NCBI GenBank assembly: GCA_016793725.1
Contig: JAEUJP010000398.1
Location: 240-64,239 of the forward strand
Source of the DNA: Myxococcaceae bacterium
GTDB taxonomy: Bacteria; Myxococcota; Myxococcia; Myxococcales; Myxococcaceae
Direction of reading: 5' to 3'
DNA length: 64,000 bases
Part shown: positions 27,116-40,935 of the stretch, piece after piece
How positions within the stretch are numbered: position 1 is the first letter of the stretch
Layout of the letters: each line of letters opens with the position of its first letter
Notes under the pieces: model-generated
Seen by the model: the letters and a program-made list of their open reading frames with translations, nothing else
Databases searched by the model: none
Told to the model about the DNA's origin: nothing
Position numbers and translations under genes: made by a program

Positions 27116-27563
27116 GCTTCGTCACCTGAAAGCCCGGGCCGTCGACGGCGTTCAGCGCTGACAGCGCAGGGGCGAACGCGTCGGAGGTCTGCGCGCGCGC
27201 GAGCGTCACGTGCGGCACGTACGGGCGCCCGCTGTCGCCGTAGAGGTTCGCCGCCTCTCGCTCGAGCGCGTGCAGCTTCTCGAGCTCGCCGCCGACGCCG
27301 AGCCACAACACCGACGCCGCCCGCTCGGTGACGAACGTGCCCGCGCCGTGGAGCTTCAGCGTGAAGGGCTGCGCGCGAGAGGCGAGCACGTCGAGCTTCT
27401 CGGCGAGGCCGTCGGGCTTCGGGTTCCCGAGGAAGACGACGGTCAGGTGGAGCTTCTCGGCCTGCTGCCACTTCGCGTTCACCGTGGGGCTCCACCGCGC
27501 AATGGCGTGTGATGCCGCGGCGCGGGCCTCGGCTCCCAGCTCGATGGCGACGAAGATGCTCAT
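27045..27563 (-). CDS. thpR: RNA 2',3'-cyclic phosphodiesterase (2H phosphoesterase, ThpR/LigT-like)
   Basis: Two HxT motifs (HLTVVFLG and HVTLAR). Start MSIFVAIEL overlaps the LysR-gene stop (ATGA). Confidence 0.8.
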   Translation of the reverse strand: MSIFVAIELGAEARAAASHAIARWSPTVNAKWQQAEKLHLTVVFLGNPKPDGLAEKLDVLASRAQPFTLKLHGAGTFVTERAASVLWLGVGGELEKLHALEREAANLYGDSGRPYVPHVTLARAQTSDAFAPALSALNAVDGPGFQVTKLTLFESTHHQFRSIHESPLHSHA

Positions 27564-28432
27564 CGAGCGCTCCCCAGCTTCTTCACGAGAAAGTCGGCGA
27601 CCGCTCGAATGCGGGCGGCCCGGCGCAGGTCGCGGTGCATGACGAGCCACACCGTGCGGCGCACGACCTTCGCGGGCGGCAGCACCTGTACGAGCTCGGG
27701 GTACGGCGCGGCGAGGTACTCGGGAATGATGGCGAGGCCGCCGCCCGCGCGCGCGGCGCCGAGAAACGCGCGCGAGGTGTTCGTGCGCATGAGTATTCGC
27801 CCCGCCCGAGCGTGCTGCAGGTACCAGGTCACCTCGGGCTCGGGTTGGTACGAGTCGTCGTAGACGATGAAGTCGTGCCCCTCGAACGCGAAGCCGCGCG
27901 GCCGGCCCTTGCGTTCGAGGTACCTCTTCGACGCGTAGAGCCCCGAGCCGACCGTGCCGATCTGCCGCACGATGAGCCCGACCTGCGTCGACGGCGACAT
28001 GCGCACGGCGAGGTCGGCCTCTCGCCGGCTCAGGTTCAGGTTGCGGTTGTCGGCGATCAGCTCGAGCTGAATGCGCGGCTGGGCCTGCAGCAGCTCGACG
28101 AGCAGCGGAGCCACCACCACGGGCCCGTAGATGTCGGGCACCGTCAGCCGCACCGGCCCGGCGACCTCGCTCTCACGGCCGGTGACCTCGCGCTCCATCG
28201 CGAGGGCTTCGCTCTCCATCGCTTCGAAGCGCGGCTGAATCGCGTCGGCCTCTTCGGTGGGCTTCAGGCCCGTCGACGTGCGGTCGAACAGGTGGGCGCC
28301 GAGCGACTTCTCGAGCGCGGTGAGGCGCCGCCCGACCGTCGTCTGCTCGACGTCGAGCGCGCGCGCTGCCGCAGACAGTGAGCCGCCCCGGTAGGCGGCG
28401 AGGAAGACCTTGGCGTCGCTCCACTCGAACAT
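27560..28432 (-). CDS. LysR-family transcriptional regulator
   Basis: N-terminal HTH FLAAYRGGSLSAAARALDVEQTTVGRRLTALEKSLGAHLFDR. 290 aa counted from MFEW. Confidence 0.9.
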   Translation of the reverse strand: MFEWSDAKVFLAAYRGGSLSAAARALDVEQTTVGRRLTALEKSLGAHLFDRTSTGLKPTEEADAIQPRFEAMESEALAMEREVTGRESEVAGPVRLTVPDIYGPVVVAPLLVELLQAQPRIQLELIADNRNLNLSRREADLAVRMSPSTQVGLIVRQIGTVGSGLYASKRYLERKGRPRGFAFEGHDFIVYDDSYQPEPEVTWYLQHARAGRILMRTNTSRAFLGAARAGGGLAIIPEYLAAPYPELVQVLPPAKVVRRTVWLVMHRDLRRAARIRAVADFLVKKLGSAR

Positions 28433-28507
28433 GTGTGCACAATTGCACAGCGCGTATGCGTGCGTCGCCAATGGCGTGGCGTTTTCGCCGACCCTAGTTT
28501 TCCGGGC
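28433..28507. promoter_or_regulatory. Divergent LysR/EamA control region
   Basis: 75-bp gap between divergent starts. It contains gtgcaCAATTGcacag, a partial dyad around a CAATTG palindrome, consistent with a LysR-type T-N11-A site. Confidence 0.35.
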
Positions 28508-29395
28508 ATGAGACGGCTCGCACTCGCCCTGGCAACGGTCTACGTGGTGTGGGGCTCCACGTACCTGGCGATGAAGGTGGCGGTCGAGACGCTGCCGCCG
28601 TTCTTCATGGCGGCGTCGCGTTACCTGATGGCGGGCCTGACGCTGTACCTGCTGCTGCGAGCGCGAGGTGCGAAGGCGCCAACGGCGAAGCAGTGGGCCG
28701 CGAGCGCCTTCATCGGAGCGCTGACGCTGGTCGTCGGCAACGCCTTGCTCGCGCGCGCCGAGCAGCACGTGCCGTCGAACGTGTGCGCGGTGCTGTACGG
28801 CTCGATACCGCTGTGGGCGTCGTTCATGAGCTTCGCGTTCGGCCAGCGGCTGAAGAGGGCCGAGTGGGCGGGCATCGGGCTGGGTCTGCTCGGCGTCGTC
28901 GCGCTGAACCTGGGCGGCGACTTTCGCTCGCACCCGGCCGAGGCGGCGTTGGTGCTGGTCGGCGCTGCGGGGCTCGCGACGGGCTCGGTGTGGATGAAGC
29001 GGGTCGACCTGCCGAAGGGGGCAATGGGGCCGGCGGCGCAGCTGTGCATGGCGGGGTTGATGATGGTGGTGGCGAGCCTCGCGACGGGCGAGCCGGTGCT
29101 CGACGTGCAGCCGTCGGGGCGGTCGCTGGCGGCGCTCGGGTACCTGACGGGGGTGGGCTCGCTGGTGGCGTACCCGGCGTACGCGTACGTGCAGCTGCAC
29201 GCGCGGCCGGCGCTGGCGACGTCGAACGCGTACGTGAACCCGCTGGTGGCGATGCTGCTCGGCGCGCTGCTCGGCGGCGAGCTGCTCGGGGCGACGACGC
29301 TGGTGGGCGCGGTGCTGATTCTGGCGGCGCTGGGGCTGACGGCGCTTTTGAAGCGGGACGCGTCGCCGCGTCAGGTGCCCGCGCCGGCGCCCTGA
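28508..29395 (+). CDS. EamA/DMT-family transporter
   Basis: MRRLALALATVYVVWGSTYLAMK..., about 10 hydrophobic segments, two EamA-like halves. Confidence 0.85.
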   Translation: MRRLALALATVYVVWGSTYLAMKVAVETLPPFFMAASRYLMAGLTLYLLLRARGAKAPTAKQWAASAFIGALTLVVGNALLARAEQHVPSNVCAVLYGSIPLWASFMSFAFGQRLKRAEWAGIGLGLLGVVALNLGGDFRSHPAEAALVLVGAAGLATGSVWMKRVDLPKGAMGPAAQLCMAGLMMVVASLATGEPVLDVQPSGRSLAALGYLTGVGSLVAYPAYAYVQLHARPALATSNAYVNPLVAMLLGALLGGELLGATTLVGAVLILAALGLTALLKRDASPRQVPAPAP

Positions 29396-29571
29396 GTATC
29401 GGTTCGCTGCGCTCACGTTTCCGCGCCGGAGGCGCGAGTAGCCCAGAAGCCGGGCCCAGGCCGAACACCTCGCCCGCCTCGCCGGGCACACCCTCGGCCT
29501 CCACCGCGGCGAACGCCGGTTCGCGGAGCTGTTCGAGCAGTTCGTGAGCGGCAGGGTGGGCCCGGCTCGGG

Positions 29572-29600
29572 TTGACACTTAAGTTTTAACTTAATAATCA
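29572..29600 (+). promoter_or_regulatory. Sigma-70-like promoter, probably giving a leaderless or very short-leader mRNA
   Basis: TTGACA (29572-29577), a 16-17-nt AT-rich spacer, then ATAATC/TAATCA ending at the first ATG. This is the only strongly AT-rich stretch in the local area. Confidence 0.45.
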
Positions 29601-30166
29601 TGAGACCCATGCAAAAGCTCCGGGTCTTCGAGTCCATCTCCATCGACGGGTACTTCACCGACGCGCACGGCGACATGAGCTGGGCGCACGCGGGTGCGGC
29701 CGACACCGAATACGGCGCGTGGGTGGCCGGCAACGCGAGCAGTGGCAGAGGCACCCTGCTCTTCGGCCGCAAGACGTACGAACAGATGGTCGCGTTCTGG
29801 CCGACGCCGCAAGCGGCGCAGCAGCTGCCCGAGGTGGCAAAGGGCATGAACGCGGCGAAGAAGGTGGTGGCGACGCGCACGCTGAAGCCGACGTGGCAGA
29901 ACACGACCGCGCTGCAGGGCTCGCTGGTCGAGGCGGTGAAGGCGCTGAAGGCGGGAGCGGGCGGCGACATCACGGTGCTGGGCAGCGGCAGCGTGGCGGC
30001 GCAGCTCGGCGAGGCCGGCCTGGTCGACGAGTACCAGTTCGTGGTGGTGCCCATCGCGCTCGGCGCGGGCCGCACGGTGTTCAGCGGGGCGAAGAAGCTG
30101 AAGCTCGTCGAGCAGCGGGCGTTTCGCGTGAGCGGCAACGTGGTGGTGACCTATGCCGCCGCGTAG
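29600..30166 (+). CDS. Dihydrofolate-reductase-like (RibD C-terminal domain) family protein
   Basis: KLRVFESISIDGYF...LLFGRKTYE...ITVLGSGSV...LVDEYQFVVVPIALG. The likely true start is the second ATG at 29609 (MQKLRVF). Confidence 0.85.
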   Translation: MRPMQKLRVFESISIDGYFTDAHGDMSWAHAGAADTEYGAWVAGNASSGRGTLLFGRKTYEQMVAFWPTPQAAQQLPEVAKGMNAAKKVVATRTLKPTWQNTTALQGSLVEAVKALKAGAGGDITVLGSGSVAAQLGEAGLVDEYQFVVVPIALGAGRTVFSGAKKLKLVEQRAFRVSGNVVVTYAAA

Positions 30167-30671
30167 GGGCACGTCTGTCGTCGACGGCGAGCACGCGACG
30201 CTGACCTTCCACCGGGTCTACCCGCACCGCATCGAGCACGTGTGGGAGGCCATCTCGACGCGCGAGGGTCTCTCGCAGTGGCTGATGTGCACGCGCGCAG
30301 ACATCGACGCGCGTGTCGGCGGTCACATCGAGCTCATCACCGGCCCGACGGCGTACCACTCGACGGGCAGAATCACGGCGTGGCAGCCGCCGCGGCTGTT
30401 CGAGTTCGAGTGGAACGTGGCGCCGCTGCCCGAGATGCCGCGCGGTGAAAACGCGCTCTTCCGCTTCGAGCTCTCACCGCTGGCCGACGGGGCGACGCGG
30501 CTCGTGGTCACGTACCTGCGCATCACGAAGCAGACGGCGGTGGGGTTCTTGCCCGGGCTGCACGCGTTTCTCGATCGGCTCGAGGCGCAGCTCGAGGGCG
30601 CCACCCTGCCCGACTGGCTGCAGCGGTTCGAAGCGCTGCGCGCCGAGTACCCCGACTGGGGTGGCCATTGA
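30153..30671 (+). CDS. SRPBCC/AHSA1-like domain protein
   Basis: LTFHRVYPHRIEHVWEAISTREGLSQW...GGHIEL...FEFEW. Overlaps the upstream gene by 14 nt. Confidence 0.8.
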   Translation: MPPRRGTSVVDGEHATLTFHRVYPHRIEHVWEAISTREGLSQWLMCTRADIDARVGGHIELITGPTAYHSTGRITAWQPPRLFEFEWNVAPLPEMPRGENALFRFELSPLADGATRLVVTYLRITKQTAVGFLPGLHAFLDRLEAQLEGATLPDWLQRFEALRAEYPDWGGH

Positions 30672-31009
30672 GGCCGGTGCAAGAGAGCGACGTGTTTCAC
30701 GCCATCGCGCACCCGGCGCGGCGGCACATCTTGCTTCAGCTGAAAGCGGGCGAGCTCGCGGCCGGCGCTCTGGCCGAGCCGTTCGACATGAGCCTGCCGG
30801 CCATCTCGCAGCACCTGCGCGTGCTCGAAGAGGCCGAGCTCGTCAGCGTGCGCCGCGAGGGCCGCAGCCGCCTGTACCGGCTCGAGCCGAAGCCGCTGCG
30901 CGAGGTGGTCGGCTGGGTCGATGAGTTCGCGAAGTTCTTCGACGAACGGCTCGATGCGCTGGGTGAGTACCTCGACGAGAAGCACGGCAAGCGCACGCGG
31001 CGAAGGTGA
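30668..31009 (+). CDS. ArsR/SmtB-family transcriptional regulator
   Basis: VFHAIAHPARRHILLQL...LAEPFDMSLPAISQHLRVLEEAELV. The start overlaps the upstream stop. Confidence 0.9.
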   Translation: MRPVQESDVFHAIAHPARRHILLQLKAGELAAGALAEPFDMSLPAISQHLRVLEEAELVSVRREGRSRLYRLEPKPLREVVGWVDEFAKFFDERLDALGEYLDEKHGKRTRRR

Positions 31010-31138
31010 GGTCGCCGACGGGTCGGGGGATGAATCGAGCCGCCCATGGCCCGAATCATCCCCGCACTCTGAGGTCGACACCGGGCCGCACGTTTCTTCA
31101 CGAACAGAGCGCCACGCTCCCGGTTAGAGAGAGGCCGC

Positions 31139-31831
31139 ATGGGCTACCGAGTCGTCATCGCAGGCGGCACCGGGCAGGTCGGCAGAGCGGTCGTGCAGGC
31201 CTTCATCGCCGACCCGTCGTGCACCGAGCTCGTCATGGTGAACCGGCGCGCTGGTAGCGCTGCCTCGAACGCCAAGGTCCGCGAGGCCGTGCTCGACACG
31301 AGCGCGCCGAGCCTCCAGCAAGACACCGCTGCGCTCGTGCGCGAGACCGCGAGCAAAGGCGACACCGTCGTCGGCGCCTCGTGCATCGGCGTCGGCACCG
31401 GCAGCATGAAGTGGAGCGAAGAGGACCTGAAGGCCCTCGAGGTCGGCGTCGTCGGCGCGTTCGCGCGCGGCTGTCGTGACGCCGGCGTCACCCGCTTCGG
31501 GCTGCTGTCGGCGGTGGGCTCGAGCTCGAGCAGCATGTTCCGCTACGTGCGCGTCATGGGGCTGAAAGAAGAGAACATCGCGGCCGTCGGCTTCGAGCGG
31601 CTCGCCATCTTCCGCCCCGGCATCATCGGCGGCATCGGCCACACGCCGGGCGCGGTGGCGGTGCTGGGTAGGTGGATTCCCGGGAAGTTCGGCACCGTCG
31701 AGGCCGACGACATTGCGGGCGCGTTCGTCACCGAGCTCACCGACGAGAAGGCCACCGGCGTCACGCACCTCGAGAACGGCGACCTGCGCGCGAGCGCGCG
31801 GCGCCGCACGCAGAACCCGAAAGGCTCCTGA
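31139..31831 (+). CDS. NAD(P)-binding Rossmann protein (atypical SDR/NmrA-like)
   Basis: VVIAGGTGQVGRAVV glycine motif at the N-terminus. Confidence 0.75.
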   Translation: MGYRVVIAGGTGQVGRAVVQAFIADPSCTELVMVNRRAGSAASNAKVREAVLDTSAPSLQQDTAALVRETASKGDTVVGASCIGVGTGSMKWSEEDLKALEVGVVGAFARGCRDAGVTRFGLLSAVGSSSSSMFRYVRVMGLKEENIAAVGFERLAIFRPGIIGGIGHTPGAVAVLGRWIPGKFGTVEADDIAGAFVTELTDEKATGVTHLENGDLRASARRRTQNPKGS

Positions 31832-31907
31832 AGCTGCGGTTCGAGACCGCTTCGACCCAGCCTTCGGCTTCCGCTCAGCGCGAACGGAGGCGACTGACTG
31901 GACCTGA

Positions 31908-33296
31908 CTAGACCAGCAGCCCGCCCAGCGGCCCGGTGCAGAACGCCGGGTCACCGAACGTGGTCGCCTGCACGCCCATCGCGTTCATCAGCGCGACGAG
32001 CAGGTTGTTGTGCGGCACGCCGGGCTGAAAGCTGAGGTACCGGTTCGTACGAATCGCGCCGCCGGCGCCGCCCACGGTGAAGAACGGGGCGGCCTTGTGG
32101 CTGTGCGTGTTGCCGCGCGTAATCTCAGAGAACCAGAGCACCACGGTGTTGTCGAGCATCGTGCCGGGCCCCTCGGGCACCGCGTCGAGCTTGTCGAGCA
32201 GGTACTTGAGCTGCTCCATGTACCAGCGGCGAATGACGGCGAGCTGCCCCCACGCATGCACGTCGGAGTCGGGCTGGTGCCCCAAGATGTGCTCGTCGCC
32301 GAGAATCGGCTTGAGGCCCGTGCCGTTGTCGTAGCTCAAGAACGGGTACGGCCGATTGTTCGTCGAGGCCGACCACTGCAGCGTCACGACGCGGGTCAGG
32401 TCGCACGCGAGCGCCATGGCGGCCTGATCCATCATCAGCCTGCCGACCTGCGGGAAGGTCGCGGGGTCGGTGAGGTTGAACATCGCGCCCGGGTTCGGCT
32501 GCGAGCAGTACATGCCGACCGTGCCGCCCGGCGCGTCGATGCGCGACTCGACGTCTCGCATCGAGTCGAGGTGGTGCTCGAGCTTCACGCGGTCTTCGGT
32601 CGACAGCCGCGCGTTCAGCTTGCGAAAGCGCTCTTTCGCGAAGTCGATGGCGGCGTGCTTGCGCAGGCGCTCGCGCTCGAGCCCAAACGGGTCGGCGCCC
32701 AGCGAACCGAACACGCGGCTGTAGAGCGCGAACGGGCTCGTCTCGTTGGCGACGGGTTGGTCGTTGCCGGTGTACGAGAGCACGGTGCGCACCTCGGTGC
32801 CGCCGTACTGCGTCGACTGCACGCCGAGGTTCAGCGTCTTGAAGCGCGTGCCGACGCCGATGACGTCGGCGATCGCCTGGTCGACCGACTTGCTCATGGC
32901 CCAGCCCGACAGCGAGCCGTCGCCGCCGACCTGCGTGCCGGTGTTGAGCTTTCTGCCCGTGAGCACGGCCATGCCCTGCTGGTGCGGCTCGCCCGGCCCG
33001 ATGTCGTTGGCGAGCATGTCGAGCCCGCTGATCAGCACCATCTTCGACGCGTACGGCTGCAGCGGCGCCATCGAGGTGCCGGCGAAGCTCATGTTCGCGG
33101 GCAGGTCGAGGTTCCCGTTCGGCGTGTAGAAGAAGATGACGCGCTTGGGGAACGTGAGGCCCTGCTCGACGGTCGCGACGTGACGCTCTTCGAGGCGCTT
33201 CTCGGGCGCGCAGCCCAGGCTCTCGAGCAGCGGCAGGGCGAGGGCGGCGCCGCCGGCTCCGCGCAGGAGCAGGCGCCGGGTGAGGTTGACGGTCAC
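31908..33296 (-). CDS. DUF1552-like protein with twin-arginine signal
   Basis: GTG start overlaps the upstream stop (GTGA). N-terminus VNLTRRLLLRGAGGAALALPLLES. ...GDEHILGHQPDSD...FSEITRGNTHSH... is typical of the family. Confidence 0.8.
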   Translation of the reverse strand: MTVNLTRRLLLRGAGGAALALPLLESLGCAPEKRLEERHVATVEQGLTFPKRVIFFYTPNGNLDLPANMSFAGTSMAPLQPYASKMVLISGLDMLANDIGPGEPHQQGMAVLTGRKLNTGTQVGGDGSLSGWAMSKSVDQAIADVIGVGTRFKTLNLGVQSTQYGGTEVRTVLSYTGNDQPVANETSPFALYSRVFGSLGADPFGLERERLRKHAAIDFAKERFRKLNARLSTEDRVKLEHHLDSMRDVESRIDAPGGTVGMYCSQPNPGAMFNLTDPATFPQVGRLMMDQAAMALACDLTRVVTLQWSASTNNRPYPFLSYDNGTGLKPILGDEHILGHQPDSDVHAWGQLAVIRRWYMEQLKYLLDKLDAVPEGPGTMLDNTVVLWFSEITRGNTHSHKAAPFFTVGGAGGAIRTNRYLSFQPGVPHNNLLVALMNAMGVQATTFGDPAFCTGPLGGLLV

Positions 33297-35017
33297 GGGG
33301 CACCTCCGGCGTAGAGAAACGCGTCGGACTGGGTGATTTCTTCGAGCAGCTTCTTCACGTCGCGGCCGTCTTCGGTGAACGACTTCTCGAGGCGCTCGAG
33401 CGTGCACGCGTCGGCCGCCTGCTCGCCACGGCCGTGCGCGAAGCGGAACCACTGCTTCACGTAGCAGCGCCGCGCCTGCGCGCTGAGGCTCAGCTTCTTC
33501 GCGAGGCCGGGCACGCCGGTGAACGGCCCCGCCACGTCGGTGCCGTAGATGTGGCCGCTCGCGTCGATGGGCAGGTTCGCCTCGGTGTCGCGGTGCACGC
33601 CGATGCCGTCGAAGCTCTCGAAGCCGAAGCCGAGCGGGTCCATCAGGCGATGGCACGCCGAGCACGCCGCGTTGTCGCTGTGCTCTCGAAACCGCTCGCG
33701 TGCCGTGCTGTTCGGGTTCGGCTCGGGCACCGTAATCATCACCTCGGGCGGTGGCGCCGCCAGCACCTCGCAGAGAAACGCCTCGCGCACGAGCTTGCCG
33801 CGGTGCACCGGCGACGTCTGGTTCGAGTGCGCGTTCAAGGTGAGCAGCGAGCCCTGCGTGAGCAGGCCGCCGCGCTGCTTCGGGTCGAGCGGCACCTTGT
33901 TCATCGCCGCGCCGCCCATCGGAGCGGGCAGCCCATAGAGCTCGGCGAGCCGCGCGTCGACGAACGTATAGGGAGCCGTCAGCAGCGCGTCGTAGGTGCC
34001 CTCGCCGTCGAACACCACGTGCTCGACGAACGCCCGGGTCTCGGCGTGCATCGAGCCGGCGTGAGCGGTCGACCACCGCGGGTAGACCGAGGCGGCCTTG
34101 CCGACGTTGGCGATGCGGTCGAAGTCGAGCCACTGCTGGTGAAACTCGCTAACCACGGCGCGGGCGCGCGGGTCGAGCAGCATGCGGCGGGCAGCGGCGC
34201 GCACCTGCTCGGGCGTCGAGAGCTCACCTTTGTCGGCGGCGAGCTTCAGCGCCTCGTCGGGCTGCGAGGCCCACAAGAGATACGAGAGGCGCGAAGCGAG
34301 CGCGTGCGAGTCGAGCCGCACGGGCACACCGGCGTCGGGCGACGGCGCCGGCAGCTCGACGCGGTAGAGGAAGTCGGGCGAGATGAGCACGCTCTCGACG
34401 GCGAGCCGCAGGCCGGCGACGAACGGGGTCAGCGGCGTGGTGCCGTCGAGGCCTCCGATGGTGGCGCCGCGGTCGTAGATGGCGAACAGCTCGGCCTCTT
34501 CTTCGGCGGTGAGCGGGCGGCGGTACGCGCGCGCGCCGAACGCCTTCAAGAACTGCTCGGCGCAGACGCGGTCGCCCTGGGTCGCGGGCGCGCACGAATA
34601 CCAGGTGAGGCGGCCGAGGTTCGAGGTGAGCCGCGCGGCGATGCCTGACGCGGCGGCGAAGTGTTTGTCGACGAGCGCCGACGAGGTGCTGAGCGCCTGC
34701 GCGTTGTTGTTGAAGCCGAGCGCCTCTTCTTCGGCGCCGAACTCGGCTGCGGGGTGGGTGTCGTCGCCGAGCAGGTCGCGAATGGTGTTGTCGTATTCGA
34801 ACCGCGTCATGCGGCGAATCGGGGCGGGGCCGGGCTTCACCTCGCCGGGCGTGCAGGCCGAGGGCTTGGGGAGCGGAACCTCGACGGGCGCGGGCGGCGG
34901 CGCCGCAATGATGCCGTCGCAGGCCGCGAGGCCGAGGGCGAGGAGTGAAACGTGGAGGTAGCAGCGGACCACGCCCGCGCGGCTGCTCGAAACATGCCGG
35001 GCGTCGGGCGGTTGCAA
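33293..35017 (-). CDS. DUF1587/1592/1588/1585-type lipoprotein with CxxCH motif
   Basis: Lipobox LGLAAC. RMTRFEYDNTIRDLLG, SRLSYLLWASQPD, and CSACH at 33650-33664 followed by LMDPLGFGFESFDGIG. Confidence 0.8.
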   Translation of the reverse strand: MQPPDARHVSSSRAGVVRCYLHVSLLALGLAACDGIIAAPPPAPVEVPLPKPSACTPGEVKPGPAPIRRMTRFEYDNTIRDLLGDDTHPAAEFGAEEEALGFNNNAQALSTSSALVDKHFAAASGIAARLTSNLGRLTWYSCAPATQGDRVCAEQFLKAFGARAYRRPLTAEEEAELFAIYDRGATIGGLDGTTPLTPFVAGLRLAVESVLISPDFLYRVELPAPSPDAGVPVRLDSHALASRLSYLLWASQPDEALKLAADKGELSTPEQVRAAARRMLLDPRARAVVSEFHQQWLDFDRIANVGKAASVYPRWSTAHAGSMHAETRAFVEHVVFDGEGTYDALLTAPYTFVDARLAELYGLPAPMGGAAMNKVPLDPKQRGGLLTQGSLLTLNAHSNQTSPVHRGKLVREAFLCEVLAAPPPEVMITVPEPNPNSTARERFREHSDNAACSACHRLMDPLGFGFESFDGIGVHRDTEANLPIDASGHIYGTDVAGPFTGVPGLAKKLSLSAQARRCYVKQWFRFAHGRGEQAADACTLERLEKSFTEDGRDVKKLLEEITQSDAFLYAGGAP

Positions 35018-35102
35018 ACCGCGGGGAAGATTGCACGGGTGGGGCGGGAGGTGGACTGCTGCCGCTCCAGGTGTCGAAAACGACGTCAGTTTGTCTTCGA
35101 CG

Positions 35103-36680
35103 TCACCCGCGCCGAATGCCCGTCACCTCGCCGTAGCCCCCGGGAATGAAGAAGTCGTGCAGGCCCATGCCCATCACGCGCAGGGCGGTCGTCACGACGT
35201 CGGCCGCGCGCGGCACGCGGCGAGACGGCTGACCGTTCTCTTCGATGATGTCGACGGGCACGCCGACGCCGCGGGGCACCTCGAAGCCACCGACGCTGCG
35301 GTTCCCCGCGACGTTGCCGCCCGCGAAGACCACCGACGTGAACGGGTGATGGTCATCGCCCTGGTAGTAGCCGCTGCCGCTCTGCGCCGACCACGTGCGG
35401 CCGAACTCGCTCATCACCAACACCAGCGTGTCGTCGAGCAGCGTCTTGCCCGGCAGCCCCGGCGCCGGAGCCGCCTTCAGCTCGCCCAAGAACCGCGCCA
35501 CGATGTCCATCAGATTCCGCCCGTGCGCGCAGCTCGACGCGTTGCCGGTGCCGTTGTGCGTGTCGTAGTCGGGCGCCAGCGCGCAGTGAACGCTCGTCGC
35601 GAGGTTCGACTTCAAGAGCCGCAGCGTCATGTCGAGCCGCGGCTCGAGCTGGGTCATGTGAAAGTTCGCGAGCCCGAACGTGTAGCCGAACGCGCCCAGG
35701 CCGTAGCTCGACAGGTACGCCGGCTTGTTCGCCGTCAGCACGTCGATGCCCTTCGTCTGCTCGAGCACCGTCACCACGTCGGTCGCGAGCACGCGGCTCA
35801 CGCTCGACAGCGAGCCGTGCAGCCCCTCGAGAAACGTGTCGACCTTCGGCGACGACTTGCCGACGTACTTCCCCGGCACGCCGAGGGTGTACTCCTCGAG
35901 GGCGGTCGTCTTCAGGTTCCCGCCGAGCGCCATGCCGCGCACGTCTTTCTCGGGCCGGTCGGCGCGCGCGTCGAGGCCCTGCCACCAGCGGTTCTCCATC
36001 GGGTCGGCCGAGAGCTGCGGCGCGAGCGCGTCGATGCTCGGCACGAACACAGGCGCCGCGCGCGACGGCAGGCCCATCGCCTGCGGAGCGCCGCGCGACG
36101 AGTCGACGATGACGAACGGCAGCGGGCGTTGGTCTTTGAAGCGGTTGTAGAGGTGGTTCGCGATGACGGCGTGAACGGCGGGGGCGCGGAAGTCGGCGCC
36201 GGCGACTCCGCAGGCGGCGGCGATGAAGCCGCTCGCGTGGTCGTTCGTGCCCTGGTCGATGCCGTGCAACACCGAGAGCTGCGAGCCGAGGCCGAAGTGG
36301 GTGTAGCCGTACATCGCCGGCGCGAACGTGCTGTTGCGCGTCTGCGGGGCCGCCGGGTCCCACGAGCGCCACAGCCGCACCGGGTTGTACGGGCCGTTCG
36401 CGGGCCCCAGGTCGGTGAGCTGGTTCGCGCGAAAGAAGATGGGCTCGCCGTTGAAGTTCGCCGGCGGCGGCACGCTCTTCTCGACGTCGGCGTCGGTGCC
36501 GGGCCAGAAGCAGTGCTGAAAGCGGAACCCGCCCGGGATGTAGAGCACGCACAGGCGTGAGGGCGCGTCGGTGGCCGTCTGTGCGTGCGCGCGACCGCCG
36601 AGCAGGCCGGCGCGCTCGAGCAGCGCGACCTGCGACGCACCGAGAGACCACGAGAGGAGCTGTCTGCGGCTGAGGTTCAT
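35103..36680 (-). CDS. DUF1501-like protein with twin-arginine signal
   Basis: Start MNLSRRQLLSWSLGA. ...DTHN...SEFGRT...GDDHHP... are sulfatase-superfamily-like motifs. The upstream 93 codons of ORF 35103..36959 are ignored. Confidence 0.8.
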   Translation of the reverse strand: MNLSRRQLLSWSLGASQVALLERAGLLGGRAHAQTATDAPSRLCVLYIPGGFRFQHCFWPGTDADVEKSVPPPANFNGEPIFFRANQLTDLGPANGPYNPVRLWRSWDPAAPQTRNSTFAPAMYGYTHFGLGSQLSVLHGIDQGTNDHASGFIAAACGVAGADFRAPAVHAVIANHLYNRFKDQRPLPFVIVDSSRGAPQAMGLPSRAAPVFVPSIDALAPQLSADPMENRWWQGLDARADRPEKDVRGMALGGNLKTTALEEYTLGVPGKYVGKSSPKVDTFLEGLHGSLSSVSRVLATDVVTVLEQTKGIDVLTANKPAYLSSYGLGAFGYTFGLANFHMTQLEPRLDMTLRLLKSNLATSVHCALAPDYDTHNGTGNASSCAHGRNLMDIVARFLGELKAAPAPGLPGKTLLDDTLVLVMSEFGRTWSAQSGSGYYQGDDHHPFTSVVFAGGNVAGNRSVGGFEVPRGVGVPVDIIEENGQPSRRVPRAADVVTTALRVMGMGLHDFFIPGGYGEVTGIRRG

Positions 36681-36694
36681 GGTGGCGGCCCCTT

Positions 36695-37747
36695 TCAGAA
36701 CGAGACCCACAGCGGGTGGCGAACGAAGCTCGCGCAGACGGCCGTCCACGCGGTGCGGGTGTTGGTCGCTTCGTACGGCAGGTAGACCTGCGTGTAGACC
36801 GCGTCGACCTCGCCCTGAGAGGCGACCTCGCCCAGCATGCGCAGGTACAGCGCCGAGATGTTCTGTTTGATTTCGGTCTGCTTCGTCGCGCTGGTGTCGG
36901 CGAGCGTGACGTGGCGCAGCACGGCGCGGTTGCCCTGCTTCTCGACCGCGGCGCGGCACCAGGCCTGCGACATCTGCACGAGCGTCTGCAGCGCCGACGG
37001 CCCGAGCGTGGCGTCGCGCTTGCGGTAGTCGAGGGTGACGGCTCCGCCGAGGGCTTCGAAGCGCTCGGTGGCGCGCGAGTCAGAGACGTACTGGCGCGAG
37101 ATGCCGGGCGCCCAGTCGCGGGGCCAGACGAACAACGTGCCGCCGCGCGCGGTGTACTCTTCTTCGCGCCAGGTCGGGCGCGAGGTGTCGACGAAGTCTT
37201 GAACGCCGAGGCCGAGCTGGTCGAGCAGGCTCAAGACCATGTCGTCGGCGGCGAGGCGCCGCACCGTGAACAGCGCCGGCGACGGCTCGGAGTTGCGCAC
37301 GCCCGCGGGTGGGAGGTCGCGAACCCACTGCTCGACCTCGGCGATGGTCAGCTTCGCCACGCCCTGCTGCAGCAGCGCCTCGTACGAGGTGCCGACCGGC
37401 ATCTGCGGGTAGCTGCCCGGCGCGACGCCCTTGAGCATCTGCACGAGCAGGCTGCCGGCGGGGTCGCCCGGCTTCACGTACTTCGGGTCGTAGACGAGCC
37501 CGTTCTCGAACGCGTCGAGCGACGCGAAGAAGGGGCGGTTGCCGGTGAGGTGGCAGCCCGCGCAGGCCGCGTGCAGCGCGAGGCGAACTTCGTCGTTCTT
37601 GCCGTTGGGCTCACAGGAGGGCAGCTCGGCGCCGCCGCCGGTGCCGGTGCCGCCGCCGGTCGGGCCGGTGGGAATCGGCAGACCGCGCGAGAAGATGGAG
37701 GCGTCGCACGCCGAGAGGAGCGCGACGAAGAGGAGCGCACGTTTCAT
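36695..37747 (-). CDS. Lipoprotein with single CxxCH (heme-c-like) motif
   Basis: MKRALLFVALLSAC lipobox and LHAACAGCHLTGNRPFF. The start abuts the stop of the upstream gene (37748). Confidence 0.7.
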   Translation of the reverse strand: MKRALLFVALLSACDASIFSRGLPIPTGPTGGGTGTGGGAELPSCEPNGKNDEVRLALHAACAGCHLTGNRPFFASLDAFENGLVYDPKYVKPGDPAGSLLVQMLKGVAPGSYPQMPVGTSYEALLQQGVAKLTIAEVEQWVRDLPPAGVRNSEPSPALFTVRRLAADDMVLSLLDQLGLGVQDFVDTSRPTWREEEYTARGGTLFVWPRDWAPGISRQYVSDSRATERFEALGGAVTLDYRKRDATLGPSALQTLVQMSQAWCRAAVEKQGNRAVLRHVTLADTSATKQTEIKQNISALYLRMLGEVASQGEVDAVYTQVYLPYEATNTRTAWTAVCASFVRHPLWVSF

Positions 37748-39490
37748 CTAGAGGCCCCTCCGCAGCTCGGGCTGCATCAGGAGCTTCTTGATGAACGGCC
37801 TGAGCTTGCGGTCGCCGGCGACGAGCTCGGCGGCGAGCTTGTCGATGTAGAGCTTCTCGGCGGCGGGGTCCAAGTCGCGGCCGACGAAGTGCGCATAGAG
37901 GCGGCGCGCGGCGCAGCGGTCGAGCTCGCCCGACTTCACGAGAATTTTGCCGAACCCGAGCGGGCCCATCGTGCCGTCGCCGTGCTCGCCGAGCAGCGTG
38001 TACGACTGGGGCATGGTGTCGAGCAGCACGGCCTCGGGGTTCGCGGTCACCTGCGCCGCGGTCACGGGCGTCATCAGCGTGTCGGGCCGAAACGCGACCT
38101 TCCACCGGTAGCCGGGGCCGGCGCTCTCGGGGCCGTGCGGGTACTGGCCCGACAGCCACGCGGCGGTGGTGCGGAAGCGGCCGACGCCGCCCATGAATGG
38201 CCACGGCACGTAGTAGCTCTCGGCGCCGAAGTCCCACCGCTTGAAGAAGATGGCGGCGGGGTCGAGCGTCTGGTGGCAGTGCATGCACGTGCCGCCCTTC
38301 GCCGGGTCGTCGACGTACGGAGGAAACTGCACCGACGCCGGCGGCGGCGAGAAGCTGGCGCAGGCGAACGTCTCGAGGAAGCGCGCCGCGCGCACGCGCT
38401 CGCGGGGAAACGAAGAGAGCGAGCCGATCATGGTGAGCACGCCGGCGCTGGGCAGACCTTCGGGCGGCTGCGTCGTGGTGCGCGGGTCGAACTGGTAGTC
38501 GCGCGAGCGGCGGAAGAACGGGTTCAGGTCTTCGACGACGAACTCGCGCCACGCCTGCGGGTCGTTCGCGGTCGGGTGCATGGGGTCGCGCGGCGAGGTG
38601 TCGGCGGCCGGCTTCCACCACGTGGTGTTCATGTCGCTGACGGCGCTGCCCTGCTGCCGGCCCTGGCGCACGTAGAGGGCGCGCAGCCAGTTCGTGCCGA
38701 CCGAGTAGTTGCCGGTCACGAGGTCCGACAGCGGGCGGTCGTGCCACGCGAGGTGGGCGAAGAGGCGCGCGGGCTCTTCGTACGGGTGGCGGCGCTGGGC
38801 GCGGAAGAGGTCGTGGTTGCTGCCGCCGCCGAGGCCCGAGAGCGGCGAGCACCAGACGAGGTTGGTGCCGCAGCCGCAGCCGTCGGCGAGCGCGGGGTCG
38901 TAGTAGCCGCCCTCGGCGAGGCCACAGTCGCGCATGCCGTTCATGGTCGGCACCTGGCGAACGTTCGAGCCCGCGGTGCCGACGACCGAGACCATCGTGC
39001 CGGGCGCCCACCACGGCTCGTGCATCGTCGTCGGCGCGGCGGCGTCGTTGCACACCATCTGTTGCCAGTTGCCGTAGAGCTTGCCGGCGTGCGTGGTGTT
39101 GGCGCCGCACGTGAAGAGGTGGCCCGACATGTCGCCCTGGTAGGCATCGCCCTGCGCGCCGGTGGTGTACGCGCCGATGCCGAGCCACTCGTGGCCGAAC
39201 TTCACCATGCGCTCGTAGAACTTCGGGCTCTGCAGTGCGGTGTCGACGGCCTGGCTGATCAGCGCTTCTTTCGCGGCGTCGTCGGGCGCGGCGACGAGCG
39301 CCTCGTACTGCTCGGCGGTGGGCGTGGTGCCGGTGAGCGCGAGGGTCACGCGGCGCAGCATGCGCGTGTGGCTGATGCGGTCTTTCGTGTCGACGGCCGG
39401 GTTCGTCGGCGTCGGGGGCGCGCACTGCGGTGCCTGTGCGCGGGCGGCGAAGCTCGAGCAGAGGGCCGCGACGAGGGTGAGGCGGAGCAT
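37748..39490 (-). CDS. Secreted DUF1549/DUF1585-like protein with CxxCH motif
   Basis: Signal peptide MLRLTLVAALCSSFAARAQA. RMLRRVTLALTGTTPTAEQYEAL, and GGTCMHCHQTLDPAAIFF. Confidence 0.8.
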   Translation of the reverse strand: MLRLTLVAALCSSFAARAQAPQCAPPTPTNPAVDTKDRISHTRMLRRVTLALTGTTPTAEQYEALVAAPDDAAKEALISQAVDTALQSPKFYERMVKFGHEWLGIGAYTTGAQGDAYQGDMSGHLFTCGANTTHAGKLYGNWQQMVCNDAAAPTTMHEPWWAPGTMVSVVGTAGSNVRQVPTMNGMRDCGLAEGGYYDPALADGCGCGTNLVWCSPLSGLGGGSNHDLFRAQRRHPYEEPARLFAHLAWHDRPLSDLVTGNYSVGTNWLRALYVRQGRQQGSAVSDMNTTWWKPAADTSPRDPMHPTANDPQAWREFVVEDLNPFFRRSRDYQFDPRTTTQPPEGLPSAGVLTMIGSLSSFPRERVRAARFLETFACASFSPPPASVQFPPYVDDPAKGGTCMHCHQTLDPAAIFFKRWDFGAESYYVPWPFMGGVGRFRTTAAWLSGQYPHGPESAGPGYRWKVAFRPDTLMTPVTAAQVTANPEAVLLDTMPQSYTLLGEHGDGTMGPLGFGKILVKSGELDRCAARRLYAHFVGRDLDPAAEKLYIDKLAAELVAGDRKLRPFIKKLLMQPELRRGL

Positions 39491-39562
39491 GGCGGTGGTT
39501 TGAGCAAGGCCTGCGCCCGGCCCGAACGCTCGTTAAAGCGGGTGGTTACGGCGCTGCTGCGC

Positions 39563-39607
39563 GGTGGGGGTGAGGGGTGGCCGCCCCCCTCTTTCCCCTC
39601 ACTCTTC
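39563..39607. repeat. REP-like palindromic element, third copy
   Basis: ggtgggggtgaggggtggccgcccccctctttcccctcactcttcc shares the GGGGTGAGGGG / CCCTCT..CCCCTCAC cores with 2426-2611. Intergenic. Confidence 0.5.
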
Positions 39608-39822
39608 CGTCAGATCCGGCCCAGAGCGGCCTAGAGCCGGCAAAGAAGCAAAGACTCGTCTTTCGACTGGAGCCGCTCCGTGCGTGCAGCCCTCTTGGCG
39701 TTCGTCTCGCCGGTGGTGCCGGCGGTCGACGCGACGTACGTGTACTTCGCGGGGGTCTGGGGTTCGGCGACTCCAAGATCTACCGCGTCGCGAAGTGATG
39801 CCTGTGCCATAGACTCGCCGCG

Positions 39823-40935
39823 ATGCCGCCGCGCGCCGCCTCGCTCTGGCTCGCCCTCACCGCGCTGACGACGGGCTGCCTCGACTGGGAGTCGCTCTCG
39901 CGCCTCGGCGGCACCATGAACGTGCCGCACCTGCCGCCCGACGGTCAGTTCGCCGGCAGCGCAGACCTCACGCTCGGCTCCGTCGTCGTCGACACGAGCG
40001 TGCCCGAGGTGCGCGGCCTGGCGCTGCCGAGCGGCGTGACGTTCGCCGTGCGGCCACACGAGCCGTTCGGGCCCGAGCTCGCGGTGCTGCACGTGCGCGG
40101 GCTCACGGTGTCGGCCGGCGCCGTCGTGCGAGTCATCGGCTCGCGGCCGCTGGTGGTGGTGGCGGGCACCGACATCGAGGTCAGCGGCGTGCTCGACGCG
40201 AGCGGCCGCGGCGACGAGCCGGGCGCGGGCGCGGCGCAGACGCGCGGCGCGGGCGAAGACGGCCGCAACGACCCGACGCTCACCACGGGCGGCGGCGGCG
40301 CAGGGCACTCGGCGGTCGGAGCAGGAGGCAGCAACGCCTCGGCGACGCTCGGCGGTGAAGGAGGCGCGACGTACGGCGACGCCGAGCTGAGCGTGCTGAG
40401 CGGCGGCTCGAAGGGCGGCATCGGGTGGTTCGACCTCTGCGCGCCGCAGCAGGGCGGAGCGGGTGGCGGCGCGGTGCAGCTGTTCGCGGCCGGGGCAGTG
40501 CGCATTCGAGATGGCGGCGGTGTGAACGCGGGCGGAGGCGGTGGGCGCGGCGGCGTCATCTGCAACACGGCGGCAGCGGGCAGCGGCGGCGGCTCGGGCG
40601 GAGCCATCTTCGTGCAGGCGAACGAGGTGCAGGTGCGCGGCGTGCTCGCGGCGAACGGCGGCGGTGGCGGCAGCGGCACGACGGCGTGCGGCGGCGTGCA
40701 CGAAGACGGCGCAGCAGGTGAAGACGGCACGCTCGGAGCGGCGCCGGCGCGGGGCGGAGTGTCAGCGGGCTGCGGCTCGGCGGTCGGCGGCAGCGGCGGC
40801 TCGCTGCAGGGCGCGGCGCTCGGCGGGCCGATGACGAACGGGGCGGGCGGTGGTGGTGGCGGCGCGCCGGGGCGCATTCGAATCGTGAGCGCGGTGGCGG
40901 CGGTGCTCGACGGTGTGGTCAGCCCGGCGCCTTGA
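39823..40935 (+). CDS. Glycine-rich lipoprotein (beta-helix-like)
   Basis: Lipobox LTALTTGC, then repeated GGGG(A/S)G... segments separated by short beta-like strands (AVQLFAAGAVRI, AIFVQANEVQV, RIRIVSA). Confidence 0.65.
   Translation: MPPRAASLWLALTALTTGCLDWESLSRLGGTMNVPHLPPDGQFAGSADLTLGSVVVDTSVPEVRGLALPSGVTFAVRPHEPFGPELAVLHVRGLTVSAGAVVRVIGSRPLVVVAGTDIEVSGVLDASGRGDEPGAGAAQTRGAGEDGRNDPTLTTGGGGAGHSAVGAGGSNASATLGGEGGATYGDAELSVLSGGSKGGIGWFDLCAPQQGGAGGGAVQLFAAGAVRIRDGGGVNAGGGGGRGGVICNTAAAGSGGGSGGAIFVQANEVQVRGVLAANGGGGGSGTTACGGVHEDGAAGEDGTLGAAPARGGVSAGCGSAVGGSGGSLQGAALGGPMTNGAGGGGGGAPGRIRIVSAVAAVLDGVVSPAP

What the first reader, a model, noticed from the sequence alone, without database searches (positions are those of the whole stretch)
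31908..39490. Tandem Planctomycete-type DUF gene pairs with three CxxCH proteins and two Tat-signal partners: a 7.6-kb periplasmic module of unknown function
Five co-directional genes are packed with 0-85-nt gaps or a GTGA overlap. In order: a secreted DUF1549/1585-like protein (CMHCH); a lipoprotein (CAGCH); a Tat-signal DUF1501-like protein (SRRQLL); a DUF1587/1592/1588/1585-type lipoprotein (CSACH at 33650-33664); and a Tat-signal DUF1552-like protein (TRRLLLRG). These families occur as conserved pairs, hugely expanded in Planctomycetes, and to my knowledge none has an experimentally defined function. Here both pair types are fused into one apparent operon. This suggests a multi-subunit periplasmic complex: heme-c-like binding subunits plus folded, cofactor-bearing Tat substrates.
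Basis: partly seen in the sequence, partly recalled or inferred. Interest (0 to 1): 0.65.

Follow-up and report, generated by a model that had tools for sequence, protein, structure and literature searches.

The report
Two neighbouring haem-partner/Tat-enzyme gene cassettes
A myxobacterial genome carries, side by side, two separate versions of a widespread but still uncharacterised periplasmic gene module (a haem-motif partner protein plus a Tat-exported phosphatase/sulfatase-like enzyme); the module was already described and the side-by-side placement is not conserved, so this is an ordinary example of an open problem, not a new five-subunit machine.

Summary
Five co-directional minus-strand genes (31908-39490) carry the stated motifs, signals and Pfam families. 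The "one operon, one complex" reading is not supported.

Comparative data split the cluster into two independent cassettes.
- **Cassette A (g1-g2-g3, 35103-39490)** is a self-contained triad, kept in this order in 65 of 67 complete Myxococcota loci. g1 is a secreted PSCyt2/PSCyt3/PSD2-like protein. g2 is a lipoprotein with a PSCyt1-type cytochrome c domain and no Pfam model. g3 is a Tat-exported, divergent DUF1501 protein.
- **Cassette B (g4-g5, 31908-35017)** is the standard DUF1587/1595/1592/1588/1585 + DUF1552 pair, adjacent in 18/18 metagenome loci.
- **No linkage.** None of 58 triad loci with enough downstream DNA has g4 next to g3. The closest relative loses homology exactly at the g3 stop. 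One 9-Mb genome holds the two cassettes 1.55 Mb apart.

All three CxxCH motifs are invariant or ≥97% conserved in orthologues. The g3 model (pLDDT 89.5) gives only alkaline-phosphatase-superfamily hits, all weak. g3 and g5 are remote homologues, as are g1 and g4. A natural g1-g2 fusion exists.

The DUF1501+PSCyt module was described in 2012 and its function remains unknown. Verdict: a known kind, with a new split-partner variant.

The parts
37748..39490 (-). g1: secreted partner protein of cassette A (580 aa). It has a PSCyt2/PSD4-like N-terminal segment, a Cys-rich insert, a PSCyt3-like CxHCH segment and a PSD2/DUF1800-like C-terminus.
   Evidence: Pfam: PSCyt2 in 27/28 orthologues, PSD2 27/28, DUF1800 20/28, PSCyt3 18/28. 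hhalign against the g4 family: 96.6%, E 5.7e-10 for g1 367-576 versus g4 406-567. SPase-I type signal in close orthologues.
38273..38287 (-). g1 CMHCH motif (C402-H406).
   Evidence: C402, H404, C405, H406 and D410 are invariant in 28 orthologues and at least 97% conserved in 64.
36695..37747 (-). g2: lipoprotein with an N-terminal PSCyt1-type class-I-like cytochrome c domain (about residues 45-150) and a family-specific helical C-terminal domain. No Pfam or NCBIfam model.
   Evidence: no hit; Myxococcota family, about 60% identity; only 301 clusters in 1.84e9 proteins; related domain in P0239 is called PSCyt1 at 55 bits; AF2 model, pLDDT 71.
37550..37564 (-). g2 CAGCH haem-attachment motif (C62-H66). 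The candidate distal ligand M116, in an invariant QMP, lies at 37397-37405.
   Evidence: C62, C65, H66, Q115, M116 and P117 are invariant in 40 sequences. Coordinates checked.
35103..36680 (-). g3: Tat-exported divergent DUF1501 protein (525 aa), the probable catalytic subunit of cassette A. Tat motif SRRQLL at 36654-36671.
   Evidence: DUF1501 in 53/53 family members. RR conserved. AF2 model pLDDT 89.5, pTM 0.88. All top-50 Foldseek PDB hits are alkaline-phosphatase-superfamily enzymes, best E 5.6e-3.
35018..35102 (-). 85-nt gap between the two cassettes. It is the boundary of synteny with the closest relative and holds a hairpin without a U tail just after the g3 stop.
   Evidence: No minus-strand terminator-like or promoter-like site found.
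33293..35017 (-). g4: lipoprotein partner of cassette B (PSD3-PSD5-PSD4-PSCyt3-PSD2, that is DUF1587/1595/1592/1588/1585). CSACH at 33650-33664; lipobox LAAC at 34919-34930.
   Evidence: Pfam (E 1.5e-42 to 5e-19). C452, C455, H456, M459 and D460 invariant and C33 at least 90% conserved in 41 sequences. Lipobox in most homologues.
31908..33296 (-). g5: Tat-exported DUF1552 (HXXSHH) protein, the probable catalytic subunit of cassette B. Tat motif TRRLLL at 33264-33281. The GTG start overlaps the g4 stop (GTGA).
   Evidence: Pfam 213 bits. RR and the motifs PGEPHQQGM, DEHxxGH and SE..N.H are conserved. A g4 orthologue lies directly upstream in 18/18 loci. Remote homology to the g3 family: 90.4%, E 1.4e-6.
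39491..39822 (.). Divergent intergenic region upstream of g1, the presumed promoter region of cassette A.
   Evidence: Coding-frame profile and sequence. No consensus promoter detected.

Best explanation
The region holds two independent, anciently paralogous cassettes of one module type. They lie next to each other because of a lineage-specific rearrangement, not because they work together.

Each cassette encodes one or two Sec-exported partner proteins carrying a conserved CxxCH, and a Tat-exported enzyme with a remote alkaline-phosphatase-superfamily fold.
- Cassette A: the partner is split into g1 (soluble, PSCyt2/PSCyt3/PSD2-like) and g2 (a lipid-anchored PSCyt1-type monohaem cytochrome c). 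The enzyme is g3 (DUF1501-like).
- Cassette B: the partner is the lipoprotein g4 (DUF1587-1595-1592-1588-1585). The enzyme is g5 (DUF1552).

Inferred mechanism:
1. The partners cross the membrane unfolded and receive covalent haem from the cytochrome c maturation system.
2. The enzyme folds, and probably binds its metal, in the cytoplasm and crosses by Tat.
3. The two assemble at the periplasmic face of a membrane, held there by the lipid anchor.
4. The metalloenzyme acts on a phospho- or sulfo-ester-like or related substrate. The haem partner supplies or removes electrons, or gates or senses the reaction.

Shown here: the gene architecture, the independence of the cassettes, motif conservation, the export signals, the g1-g2 fusion, and the remote homologies g1~g4 and g3~g5.

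Inferred only: haem attachment, complex formation, catalysis and chemistry.
For: Independence of the cassettes:
- 67 of 71 distinct triad loci have all three genes; the order is g1-g2-g3 in 65 and g2-g3-g1 in 2. None of 58 loci with room has g4 downstream.
- No other flanking gene family is shared by more than 13 loci.
- The g4-g5 pair stands alone in 18/18 metagenome loci and in L095 and L096, with the same 4-nt overlap.
- Synteny with L005 ends at the g3 stop.
- The two cassettes are 1.55 Mb apart in JASGHH010000001.1.

Physical link g1-g2:
- Overlapping or abutting stop and start codons here and in L001 and L003.
- Natural g1-g2 fusion P0230.

Haem:
- CxxCH is invariant or at least 97% conserved in g1, g2 and g4.
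- g2 has an invariant QMP 50 residues after the His, and a five-helix domain in the model.
- Homologous tandem domains in P0239 score as Pfam PSCyt1 at 55 bits.
- The same domain is fused to a full g4-type protein in P0263.
- All CxxCH proteins carry Sec or lipoprotein signals, while the CxxCH-free proteins carry RR signals.

Enzyme:
- g3 model pLDDT 89.5; all 50 best PDB matches are sulfatases, alkaline phosphatases, iPGM, MCR-1, YejM, BcsG, LtaS, NPP or PMH.
- Conserved Asp/His motifs: HGxD..H, DxH, DDT..SEFGR and DH in g3; PGEPH, DEHxxGH and SE..N.H in g5.

Paralogy: g1~g4 at 96.6%; g3~g5 at 90.4%.

Prior description of the module: PMC3542564 and PMC5615132.
Against: - No experimental datum exists for any member. 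No solved structure is related by sequence.
- Every Foldseek match of g3 has E above 1e-3 and TM 0.14-0.31, so only a remote core resemblance is shown.
- g3 has Gly-Gly where this superfamily, from my own knowledge of it, has a metal-binding Asp at the end of the first strand. Neither g3 nor g5 has the C/S-x-P-x-R sulfatase motif. They may not be hydrolases of the usual kind, or may not be enzymes at all.
- The CxxCH of g1 and g4 sits in a domain with no recognised cytochrome fold and no identified distal ligand.
- The g3-g4 gap has no recognisable terminator or promoter, so read-through transcription of cassette B from cassette A in this organism is not excluded.
Confidence: 0.6

Rival explanations
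1. One reading: the five genes form one operon, and the products of both pair types assemble into a single multi-subunit periplasmic complex.
For: - The genes are co-directional, and the g3-g4 gap is only 85 nt with no terminator-like site on the coding strand.
- The unit is bounded by a divergent and a convergent gene.
Against: - None of 58 triad loci has g4 downstream. Only 1 of 71 has any g4/g5-like gene nearby, and that one is on the other strand at 25-29% identity.
- 18/18 pair loci lack the triad.
- The closest relative replaces everything beyond the g3 stop.
- The cassettes are 1.55 Mb apart in one genome.
- In L095 and L096 the pair has its own 130-166-nt upstream region.
Confidence: 0.08
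2. Non-redox model: only g2 (if any) is a true cytochrome. The CxxCH of the PSCyt3-type proteins g1 and g4 is a structural metal or disulfide motif. The partners are anchoring, substrate-binding or chaperone subunits of a purely hydrolytic or transferase enzyme.
For: - g1 has eight further conserved cysteines, consistent with a disulfide-rich periplasmic protein.
- g1 and g4 show no cytochrome-fold signal.
- g1 also resembles DUF1800 (20/28 members), the partner of DUF1501 in proteobacteria.
- Some g2 relatives carry FN3 repeats, and the 2012 paper reports carbohydrate-binding domains in partners, which points to binding roles.
Against: - The full C-x-x-C-H, including the His, is invariant in both families. 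That is the signature of haem attachment rather than of a disulfide.
- All CxxCH proteins use Sec, as cytochrome c maturation requires.
- g2 adds a standard class-I-like haem domain with a Met ligand.
Confidence: 0.22
3. Pseudoenzyme model: the Tat proteins g3 and g5 have lost catalysis and serve as folded scaffolds or binding proteins. The haem partner is the active component, for example a peroxidase-like or sensor protein.
For: - g3 matches only the C-terminal part of the DUF1501 profile.
- g3 lacks an Asp after the first strand and has no sulfatase nucleophile motif.
- The fold matches are weak.
Against: - Many polar residues are invariant across 35-88% identity in g3: H148, D373, D416, D417, S424, R428 and H444.
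- The matching motifs are kept in g5. This is typical of a preserved active site.
- Tat export fits a cofactor-bearing enzyme.
Confidence: 0.1

Closest known systems
DUF1501 + PSCyt1/PSCyt2/PSD1 module of Planctomycetes, Verrucomicrobia and Lentisphaerae (Kamneva et al. 2012, PMC3542564)
   Same: A Tat-signal DUF1501 protein is encoded next to a signal-peptide protein with cytochrome c motifs. It was proposed to be membrane-targeted and possibly redox-active, with function unknown. g3 passes the DUF1501 cut-off and g1 passes the PSCyt2 cut-off.
   Different: - The partner here is split into two translationally coupled genes, g1 and g2.
- The PSCyt1-type domain sits on a separate lipoprotein that no Pfam model recognises.
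- PSD1 is absent.
- The g1 C-terminus is PSCyt3/PSD2/DUF1800-like.
- The host is Myxococcota, apparently in one or two copies per genome rather than a large paralogue family.
PSCyt3-family (DUF1587/1595/1592/1588/1585) + DUF1552 gene pair (noted in He et al. 2017, PMC5615132)
   Same: g4 and g5 match every domain above the curated cut-offs and overlap by 4 nt, as in homologous loci.
   Different: Nothing essential. This g4 lacks the N-terminal PSCyt1-type domain that some relatives carry (P0263). g5 may be a Tat-exported lipoprotein.
DUF1800 + DUF1501 operons of Proteobacteria and Actinobacteria (PMC5122149)
   Same: A two-gene operon of a large helical partner plus a Tat-signal DUF1501 protein. 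The g1 C-terminus hits DUF1800 in 20/28 orthologues.
   Different: The g1 matches to DUF1800 are below the curated cut-off. g1 has an invariant CxHCH and an extra cytochrome lipoprotein partner.
Alkaline-phosphatase superfamily enzymes (type I sulfatases, alkaline phosphatase, NPP, iPGM, phosphoethanolamine transferases)
   Same: All 50 best structural matches of the g3 model belong to this superfamily. g3 has conserved Asp/His motifs after core strands.
   Different: - E-values are 5.6e-3 or worse and TM is at most 0.31.
- There is no C/S-x-P-x-R motif and no Asp at the end of strand 1.
- No known member of the superfamily works with a dedicated cytochrome c partner (my own knowledge).
Periplasmic Tat-enzyme plus Sec-cytochrome c pairs, such as sulfite dehydrogenase SorAB or the Sox system (analogy from general knowledge)
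   Same: The same division of labour: a cofactor-bearing catalytic subunit exported folded by Tat, and a c-type cytochrome partner exported by Sec.
   Different: There is no sequence or fold relationship. The catalytic subunits there are molybdenum or dimanganese enzymes. This is an analogy only and was not tested.

Membership tests
DUF1501 (PF07394) | Score above the Pfam gathering cut-off (27 bits). | tested here: met
   g3 scores 44.9 bits but matches only profile positions 253-336 of 390. All 53 family members match DUF1501 (best E 1.3e-15).
DUF1501 + PSCyt module (Kamneva 2012) | Twin-arginine signal on the DUF1501 protein. | tested here: met
   SRRQLL at residues 4-9. R5 and R6 are at least 90% conserved. 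Residues 1-34 are disordered in the model.
DUF1501 + PSCyt module (Kamneva 2012) | Adjacent protein with the PSCyt1/PSCyt2/PSD1 architecture. | tested here: inconclusive
   - PSCyt2 is met in g1 (37.4 bits against cut-off 29.8; 27/28 orthologues).
- PSCyt1 is reached only transitively for g2, through P0239.
- PSD1 gets only faint hits, in 3/40 g2 and 2/28 g1 relatives.
PSCyt3-type partner (DUF1587-1595-1592-1588-1585) | All five domains above cut-off, in order. | tested here: met
   g4: PSD3 75.7, PSD5 68.7, PSD4 145.5, PSCyt3 108.5 and PSD2 68.3 bits. g1 meets this only remotely (hhalign 96.6% for the PSCyt3-PSD2 part).
DUF1552 / HXXSHH (PF07586) | Score above cut-off (30 bits), and adjacency to a PSCyt3-type gene. 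| tested here: met
   g5 scores 213 bits over the full length. A g4 orthologue lies directly upstream in 18/18 loci.
Class I c-type cytochrome (g2 N-terminal domain) | CxxCH after an N-terminal helix, a distal Met about 50 residues later, a C-terminal helix, and Sec export. | tested here: met
   C62, C65, H66 and M116 are invariant. The model has helices at 50-62 and 135-143. Lipoprotein signal LSAC.
Class I c-type cytochrome (g2 N-terminal domain) | Direct match to a cytochrome c profile or fold. | tested here: not met
   There is no Pfam hit for g2. Only 1/40 relatives hit PSCyt1 (E 0.21) and 2/40 hit Haem_bd. Foldseek found nothing (best E 3.2). The link is only transitive, through P0239.
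c-type cytochromes (g1, g2, g4) | Covalently bound haem. | not testable with these tools
   Needs haem staining or mass spectrometry of the expressed proteins.
Alkaline-phosphatase superfamily | The core alpha/beta fold. | tested here: inconclusive
   50 of the 50 best PDB matches are members of the superfamily, but none has E of 1e-3 or better and TM is 0.14-0.31.
Type I sulfatases | C/S-x-P-x-R formylglycine motif. | tested here: not met
   Absent from g3 and g5.
   0/58 and 0/18. Synteny breaks at the g3 stop.
   Public runs hold at most 23% of the sampled words, and no contig spans the junction.

The most novel reading that the evidence does not exclude
The partner-plus-Tat-enzyme modules (DUF1549/1553, DUF1592/1588 or DUF1800 partners with DUF1501 or DUF1552 enzymes) are a single, very large, uncharacterised class of periplasmic enzymes. 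In this class an alkaline-phosphatase-fold metalloenzyme is electronically coupled to covalently bound haem c, a chemistry with no characterised precedent. The myxobacterial g1-g2-g3 triad would then be a minimal, genetically tractable version: few copies per genome, no other conserved neighbours, a natural g1-g2 fusion, and two haems on separate subunits forming a short electron path to the enzyme.
Probability: 0.2. Interest if true: 0.75.

Novelty: new variant of a known kind. Interest (0 to 1): 0.35.

Why it matters
These DUF families are among the most expanded unknown gene families in Planctomycetes and Verrucomicrobia. They are also common in Myxococcota. Fourteen years after the module was first described, the literature held here reports no function and no solved structure is related by sequence.

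This window does not solve that, but it sharpens the problem in four ways.
- The DUF1501 and DUF1552 systems are remote paralogues of one two-component design: g3~g5 and g1~g4.
- It identifies a compact three-gene myxobacterial variant whose middle gene is a cytochrome c lipoprotein family that Pfam misses.
- It provides Rosetta-stone fusions that argue for a physical complex.
- It points to cultured, genetically accessible hosts (Corallococcus, Myxococcus stipitatus, Cystobacter) where a knockout would not face the hundreds of paralogues that Planctomycetes are reported to carry.

Tried and rejected
- **NCBIfam:** no hit for any of the five proteins.
- **PDB sequence searches:** single sequences and family profiles for g2, g3 and g4, the g5 sequence and the g1 family profile all gave nothing.
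- **g2 C-terminal domain as a PSD3+PSD5 equivalent.** This would make g2+g1 a split, permuted g4. hhalign with a 40-sequence profile and with a 103-sequence profile gave only collinear alignments at the expected motifs, at 0.6-15% probability. The idea is kept as unproven.
- **Foldseek of the g2 model:** no match, best E 3.2.
- **Promoter and terminator scan, and a sigma-54 pattern:** nothing above chance. The g3-g4 gap folds no better than shuffles (z -1.2).
- **Operon mapping from public reads:** the organism is present only as low-depth fragments in metagenomes, and no contig crosses the g3/g4 junction.
- **Additional conserved neighbours of the triad:** none found.
- **Paralogues elsewhere in the window:** none.
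- **Literature on orthologue locus tags:** none.


Full report
**1. What is there**

The window is 66-73% G+C. In 31908-39490 the only frames with coding-type third-position G+C (0.86-0.95) are five minus-strand ORFs.
- g1: 37748-39490, 580 aa.
- g2: 36695-37747, 350 aa.
- g3: 35103-36680, 525 aa, counted from the ATG that gives MNLSRRQLL.
- g4: 33293-35017, 574 aa.
- g5: 31908-33296, 462 aa, counted from a GTG that overlaps the g4 stop.

The junctions are TAG-ATG (0 nt), 14 nt, 85 nt and a GTGA overlap. Upstream lies a divergent + strand gene (39823-40935). Downstream lies a convergent + strand gene (31139-31831). Each of g1, g2 and g4 has exactly one CxxCH. g3 and g5 have none, and also lack the sulfatase C/S-x-P-x-R motif.

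**2. Family assignments**

Pfam:
- g4 is a textbook PSD3-PSD5-PSD4-PSCyt3-PSD2 protein (E 1.5e-42 to 5e-19).
- g5 is DUF1552 (213 bits).
- g3 passes the DUF1501 cut-off (44.9 bits) but only over the C-terminal quarter of the profile.
- g1 passes PSCyt2/DUF1549 (37.4 bits) and has sub-threshold DUF1800, PSD2 and PSD4 matches.
- g2 matches nothing.

NCBIfam names none of the five.

Scanning 28 g1 orthologues makes the g1 picture robust: PSCyt2 in 27, PSD2 in 27, DUF1800 in 20, PSCyt3 in 18 and PSD4 in 12. All 53 g3 relatives, at 35-88% identity, hit DUF1501.

**3. g2, the gene without a model**

g2 has 223 detectable homologues. All the named ones are Myxococcota, such as Archangium, Cystobacter, Corallococcus, Myxococcus, Pyxidicoccus and Hyalangium. 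An exhaustive profile search of 1.84 billion cluster representatives finds only 301 clusters.

In a 40-sequence alignment the lipobox Cys14, C62-x-x-C65-H66 and Q115-M116-P117 are invariant. The AF2 model (pLDDT 71) has a five-helix domain at about residues 45-150: a helix precedes CxxCH, the Met lies 50 residues later, and a C-terminal helix carries an invariant Trp. A confident helical bundle follows at 250-349. That layout is the one expected of a class I monohaem cytochrome c (general knowledge).

Direct profile and fold matches fail. The same domain does occur in other contexts:
- as three tandem copies in P0239, where Pfam calls it PSCyt1 (55 bits);
- directly in front of a complete g4-type architecture in P0263;
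- behind FN3 repeats in P0185, P0215 and P0167.

**4. The conserved unit is a triad, not a five-gene cluster**

A scan of one genome per species returned 70 loci, all Myxococcota. Together with the loci there are 71 distinct loci.
- 67 contain g1, g2 and g3. The order is g1-g2-g3 in 65 and g2-g3-g1 in 2. The rest are cut by contig ends.
- 58 have at least 3.5 kb beyond g3. None has g4 there.
- Only one locus (L030) has any g4/g5-like genes. They lie 4 kb away on the other strand at 25-29% identity.
- No other flanking gene family is shared by more than 13 loci.

g1 and g2 overlap or abut in Corallococcus and in a MAG. P0230 is a natural g1-g2 fusion. Several MAGs carry two divergent triads.

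**5. The pair is also self-contained**

Twenty metagenome loci with g5 orthologues (50-70% identity) have a g4 orthologue directly upstream in all 18 cases where upstream DNA is present. None shows a triad gene. In L095 and L096 the pair has the same 4-nt overlap and its own 130-166-nt upstream spacer. L095 lies on the same 9.0-Mb contig as triad locus L017, 1.55 Mb away.

The closest relative of the window (L005) is 77-86% identical in DNA on both sides. It is collinear up to the last base of g3 (35103). It then carries an unrelated 4.6 kb where the window has 8.2 kb (26935-35102) that includes g4 and g5. Synteny resumes beyond that.

The juxtaposition is therefore specific to this lineage. 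It is seen in one assembly only, and public reads do not cover the junction.

**6. The two cassettes are remote paralogues**

- BLASTP aligns the CxxCH regions of g1 and g4 (E 2e-4) and the C-terminal regions of g3 and g5 (E 3e-4).
- Profile-profile comparison gives 96.6% (E 5.7e-10) for g1 367-576 against g4 406-567. Weaker collinear matches lie further upstream.
- It gives 90.4% (E 1.4e-6) for g3 348-429 against g5 288-395, plus a collinear N-terminal match.

Both cassettes therefore follow one design: a PSCyt/PSD-type partner and a DUF1501/DUF1552-type enzyme.

**7. What the Tat proteins look like**

The g3 model is confident (pLDDT 89.5, pTM 0.88; the signal peptide is disordered). All 50 best PDB matches are alkaline-phosphatase-superfamily enzymes: steroid and aryl sulfatases, alkaline phosphatases, cofactor-independent phosphoglycerate mutase, MCR-1, YejM, BcsG, LtaS, NPP and phosphonate monoester hydrolase. 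The best E is 5.6e-3 and TM is 0.14-0.31. The shared fold is thus a remote core.

Residues invariant across the g3 family include H148, D373, D416, D417, S424, R428 and H444. g5 keeps PGEPH, DEHxxGH and SE..N.H. These Asp/His sets, together with Tat export, fit a metalloenzyme. The first strand ends in Gly-Gly rather than Asp, and the sulfatase nucleophile motif is missing. These two points argue against a conventional sulfatase or phosphatase.

**8. Conservation of the haem motifs**

- g1: C402, H404, C405, H406 and D410 are invariant in 28 sequences and at least 97% conserved in 64.
- g2: see section 3.
- g4: C452, C455, H456, M459 and D460 are invariant in 41 sequences.

All three proteins carry Sec-type signals.
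- g1 has an SPase-I signal in close relatives and a lipobox in distant ones.
- g2 and g4 have lipoboxes.
- The two CxxCH-free proteins have conserved twin arginines.

This split is what cytochrome c maturation requires (general knowledge).

**9. Literature**

- Kamneva et al. 2012 (PMC3542564) described the DUF1501 + PSCyt1/PSCyt2/PSD1 module. They noted its twin-arginine and signal peptides, suggested a link to electron transport, and stated that the function is unknown.
- He et al. 2017 (PMC5615132) noted that PSCyt2 and PSCyt3 genes each sit next to a different unknown family.
- DUF1800-DUF1501 operons are noted in PMC5122149.
- No later paper in the held library gives a function.

**10. 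Verdict**

It is wrong on its distinctive claim that the two pair types are fused into one machine.

The best reading is two independent cassettes of one known but uncharacterised module type. Cassette A is a split-partner variant, restricted to Myxococcota among the genomes searched here, and its middle gene is a cytochrome c lipoprotein that Pfam misses. The mechanism is inferred, not shown: a lipid-anchored haem partner plus a Tat-exported alkaline-phosphatase-fold metalloenzyme forming a periplasmic complex.

Noticed in passing
window 26935-35102 versus L005 12636-17222: An 8.2-kb segment (LysR regulator, EamA transporter, RibD_C, AHSA1-like, NAD-binding gene, g5, g4) is replaced by an unrelated 4.6 kb in the closest relative. 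Flanking synteny of 77-86% identity ends exactly at the g3 stop.
   Followed up: partly
window 33200-33296 (g5 N-terminus); L075-L094: 13 of 16 g5-family sequences keep a Cys right after the Tat signal (…PLLxSLGC…). DUF1552 proteins may therefore be Tat-exported lipoproteins.
   Followed up: partly
window 34810-35017: The source's own gene call for g4 is 505 aa, starting at Met70. This cuts off the lipoprotein signal (LAAC, Cys33) that homologues conserve. The true start is TTG 35017 or GTG 34972.
   Followed up: partly
window 35070-35098, minus strand: A 9-bp hairpin (GUCGAAGAC…GUUUUCGAC) lies directly after the g3 stop, with no U tail. The gap as a whole folds no better than shuffled sequence (z -1.2).
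   Followed up: partly
g2 model (36695-37747); one g1 orthologue: The only, very weak, fold matches of g2 are phycobilisome-linker domains (E 3-7). One g1 orthologue faintly hits PF00427. A 2026 paper (PMC12981691) mentions a resemblance between DUF1800 and ApcE. This is a possible shared helical fold, unproven.
   Followed up: no
L005/L067, L016/L071, L030/L072, L048/L062: Several myxobacterial MAGs carry two divergent copies of the g1-g2-g3 triad. The second copies are 30-42% identical to the window's proteins. At least two triad subfamilies therefore coexist.
   Followed up: no
P0185, P0215, P0167, P0222 (relatives of g2): Some g2 relatives have one to more than seven N-terminal fibronectin type III repeats in front of the cytochrome domain. 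This suggests surface or polymer contact in those organisms.
   Followed up: no
L054, L056, L059, L062 (distant g1 orthologues): g1 has a cleavable 'AHAQ|QC' signal in the Myxococcaceae/Archangiaceae-type loci. In more distant triads (the Polyangiaceae MAG loci L054, L056 and L059, and the Myxococcales MAG locus L062) it has a lipobox. Which subunit carries the lipid anchor differs between clades.
   Followed up: no
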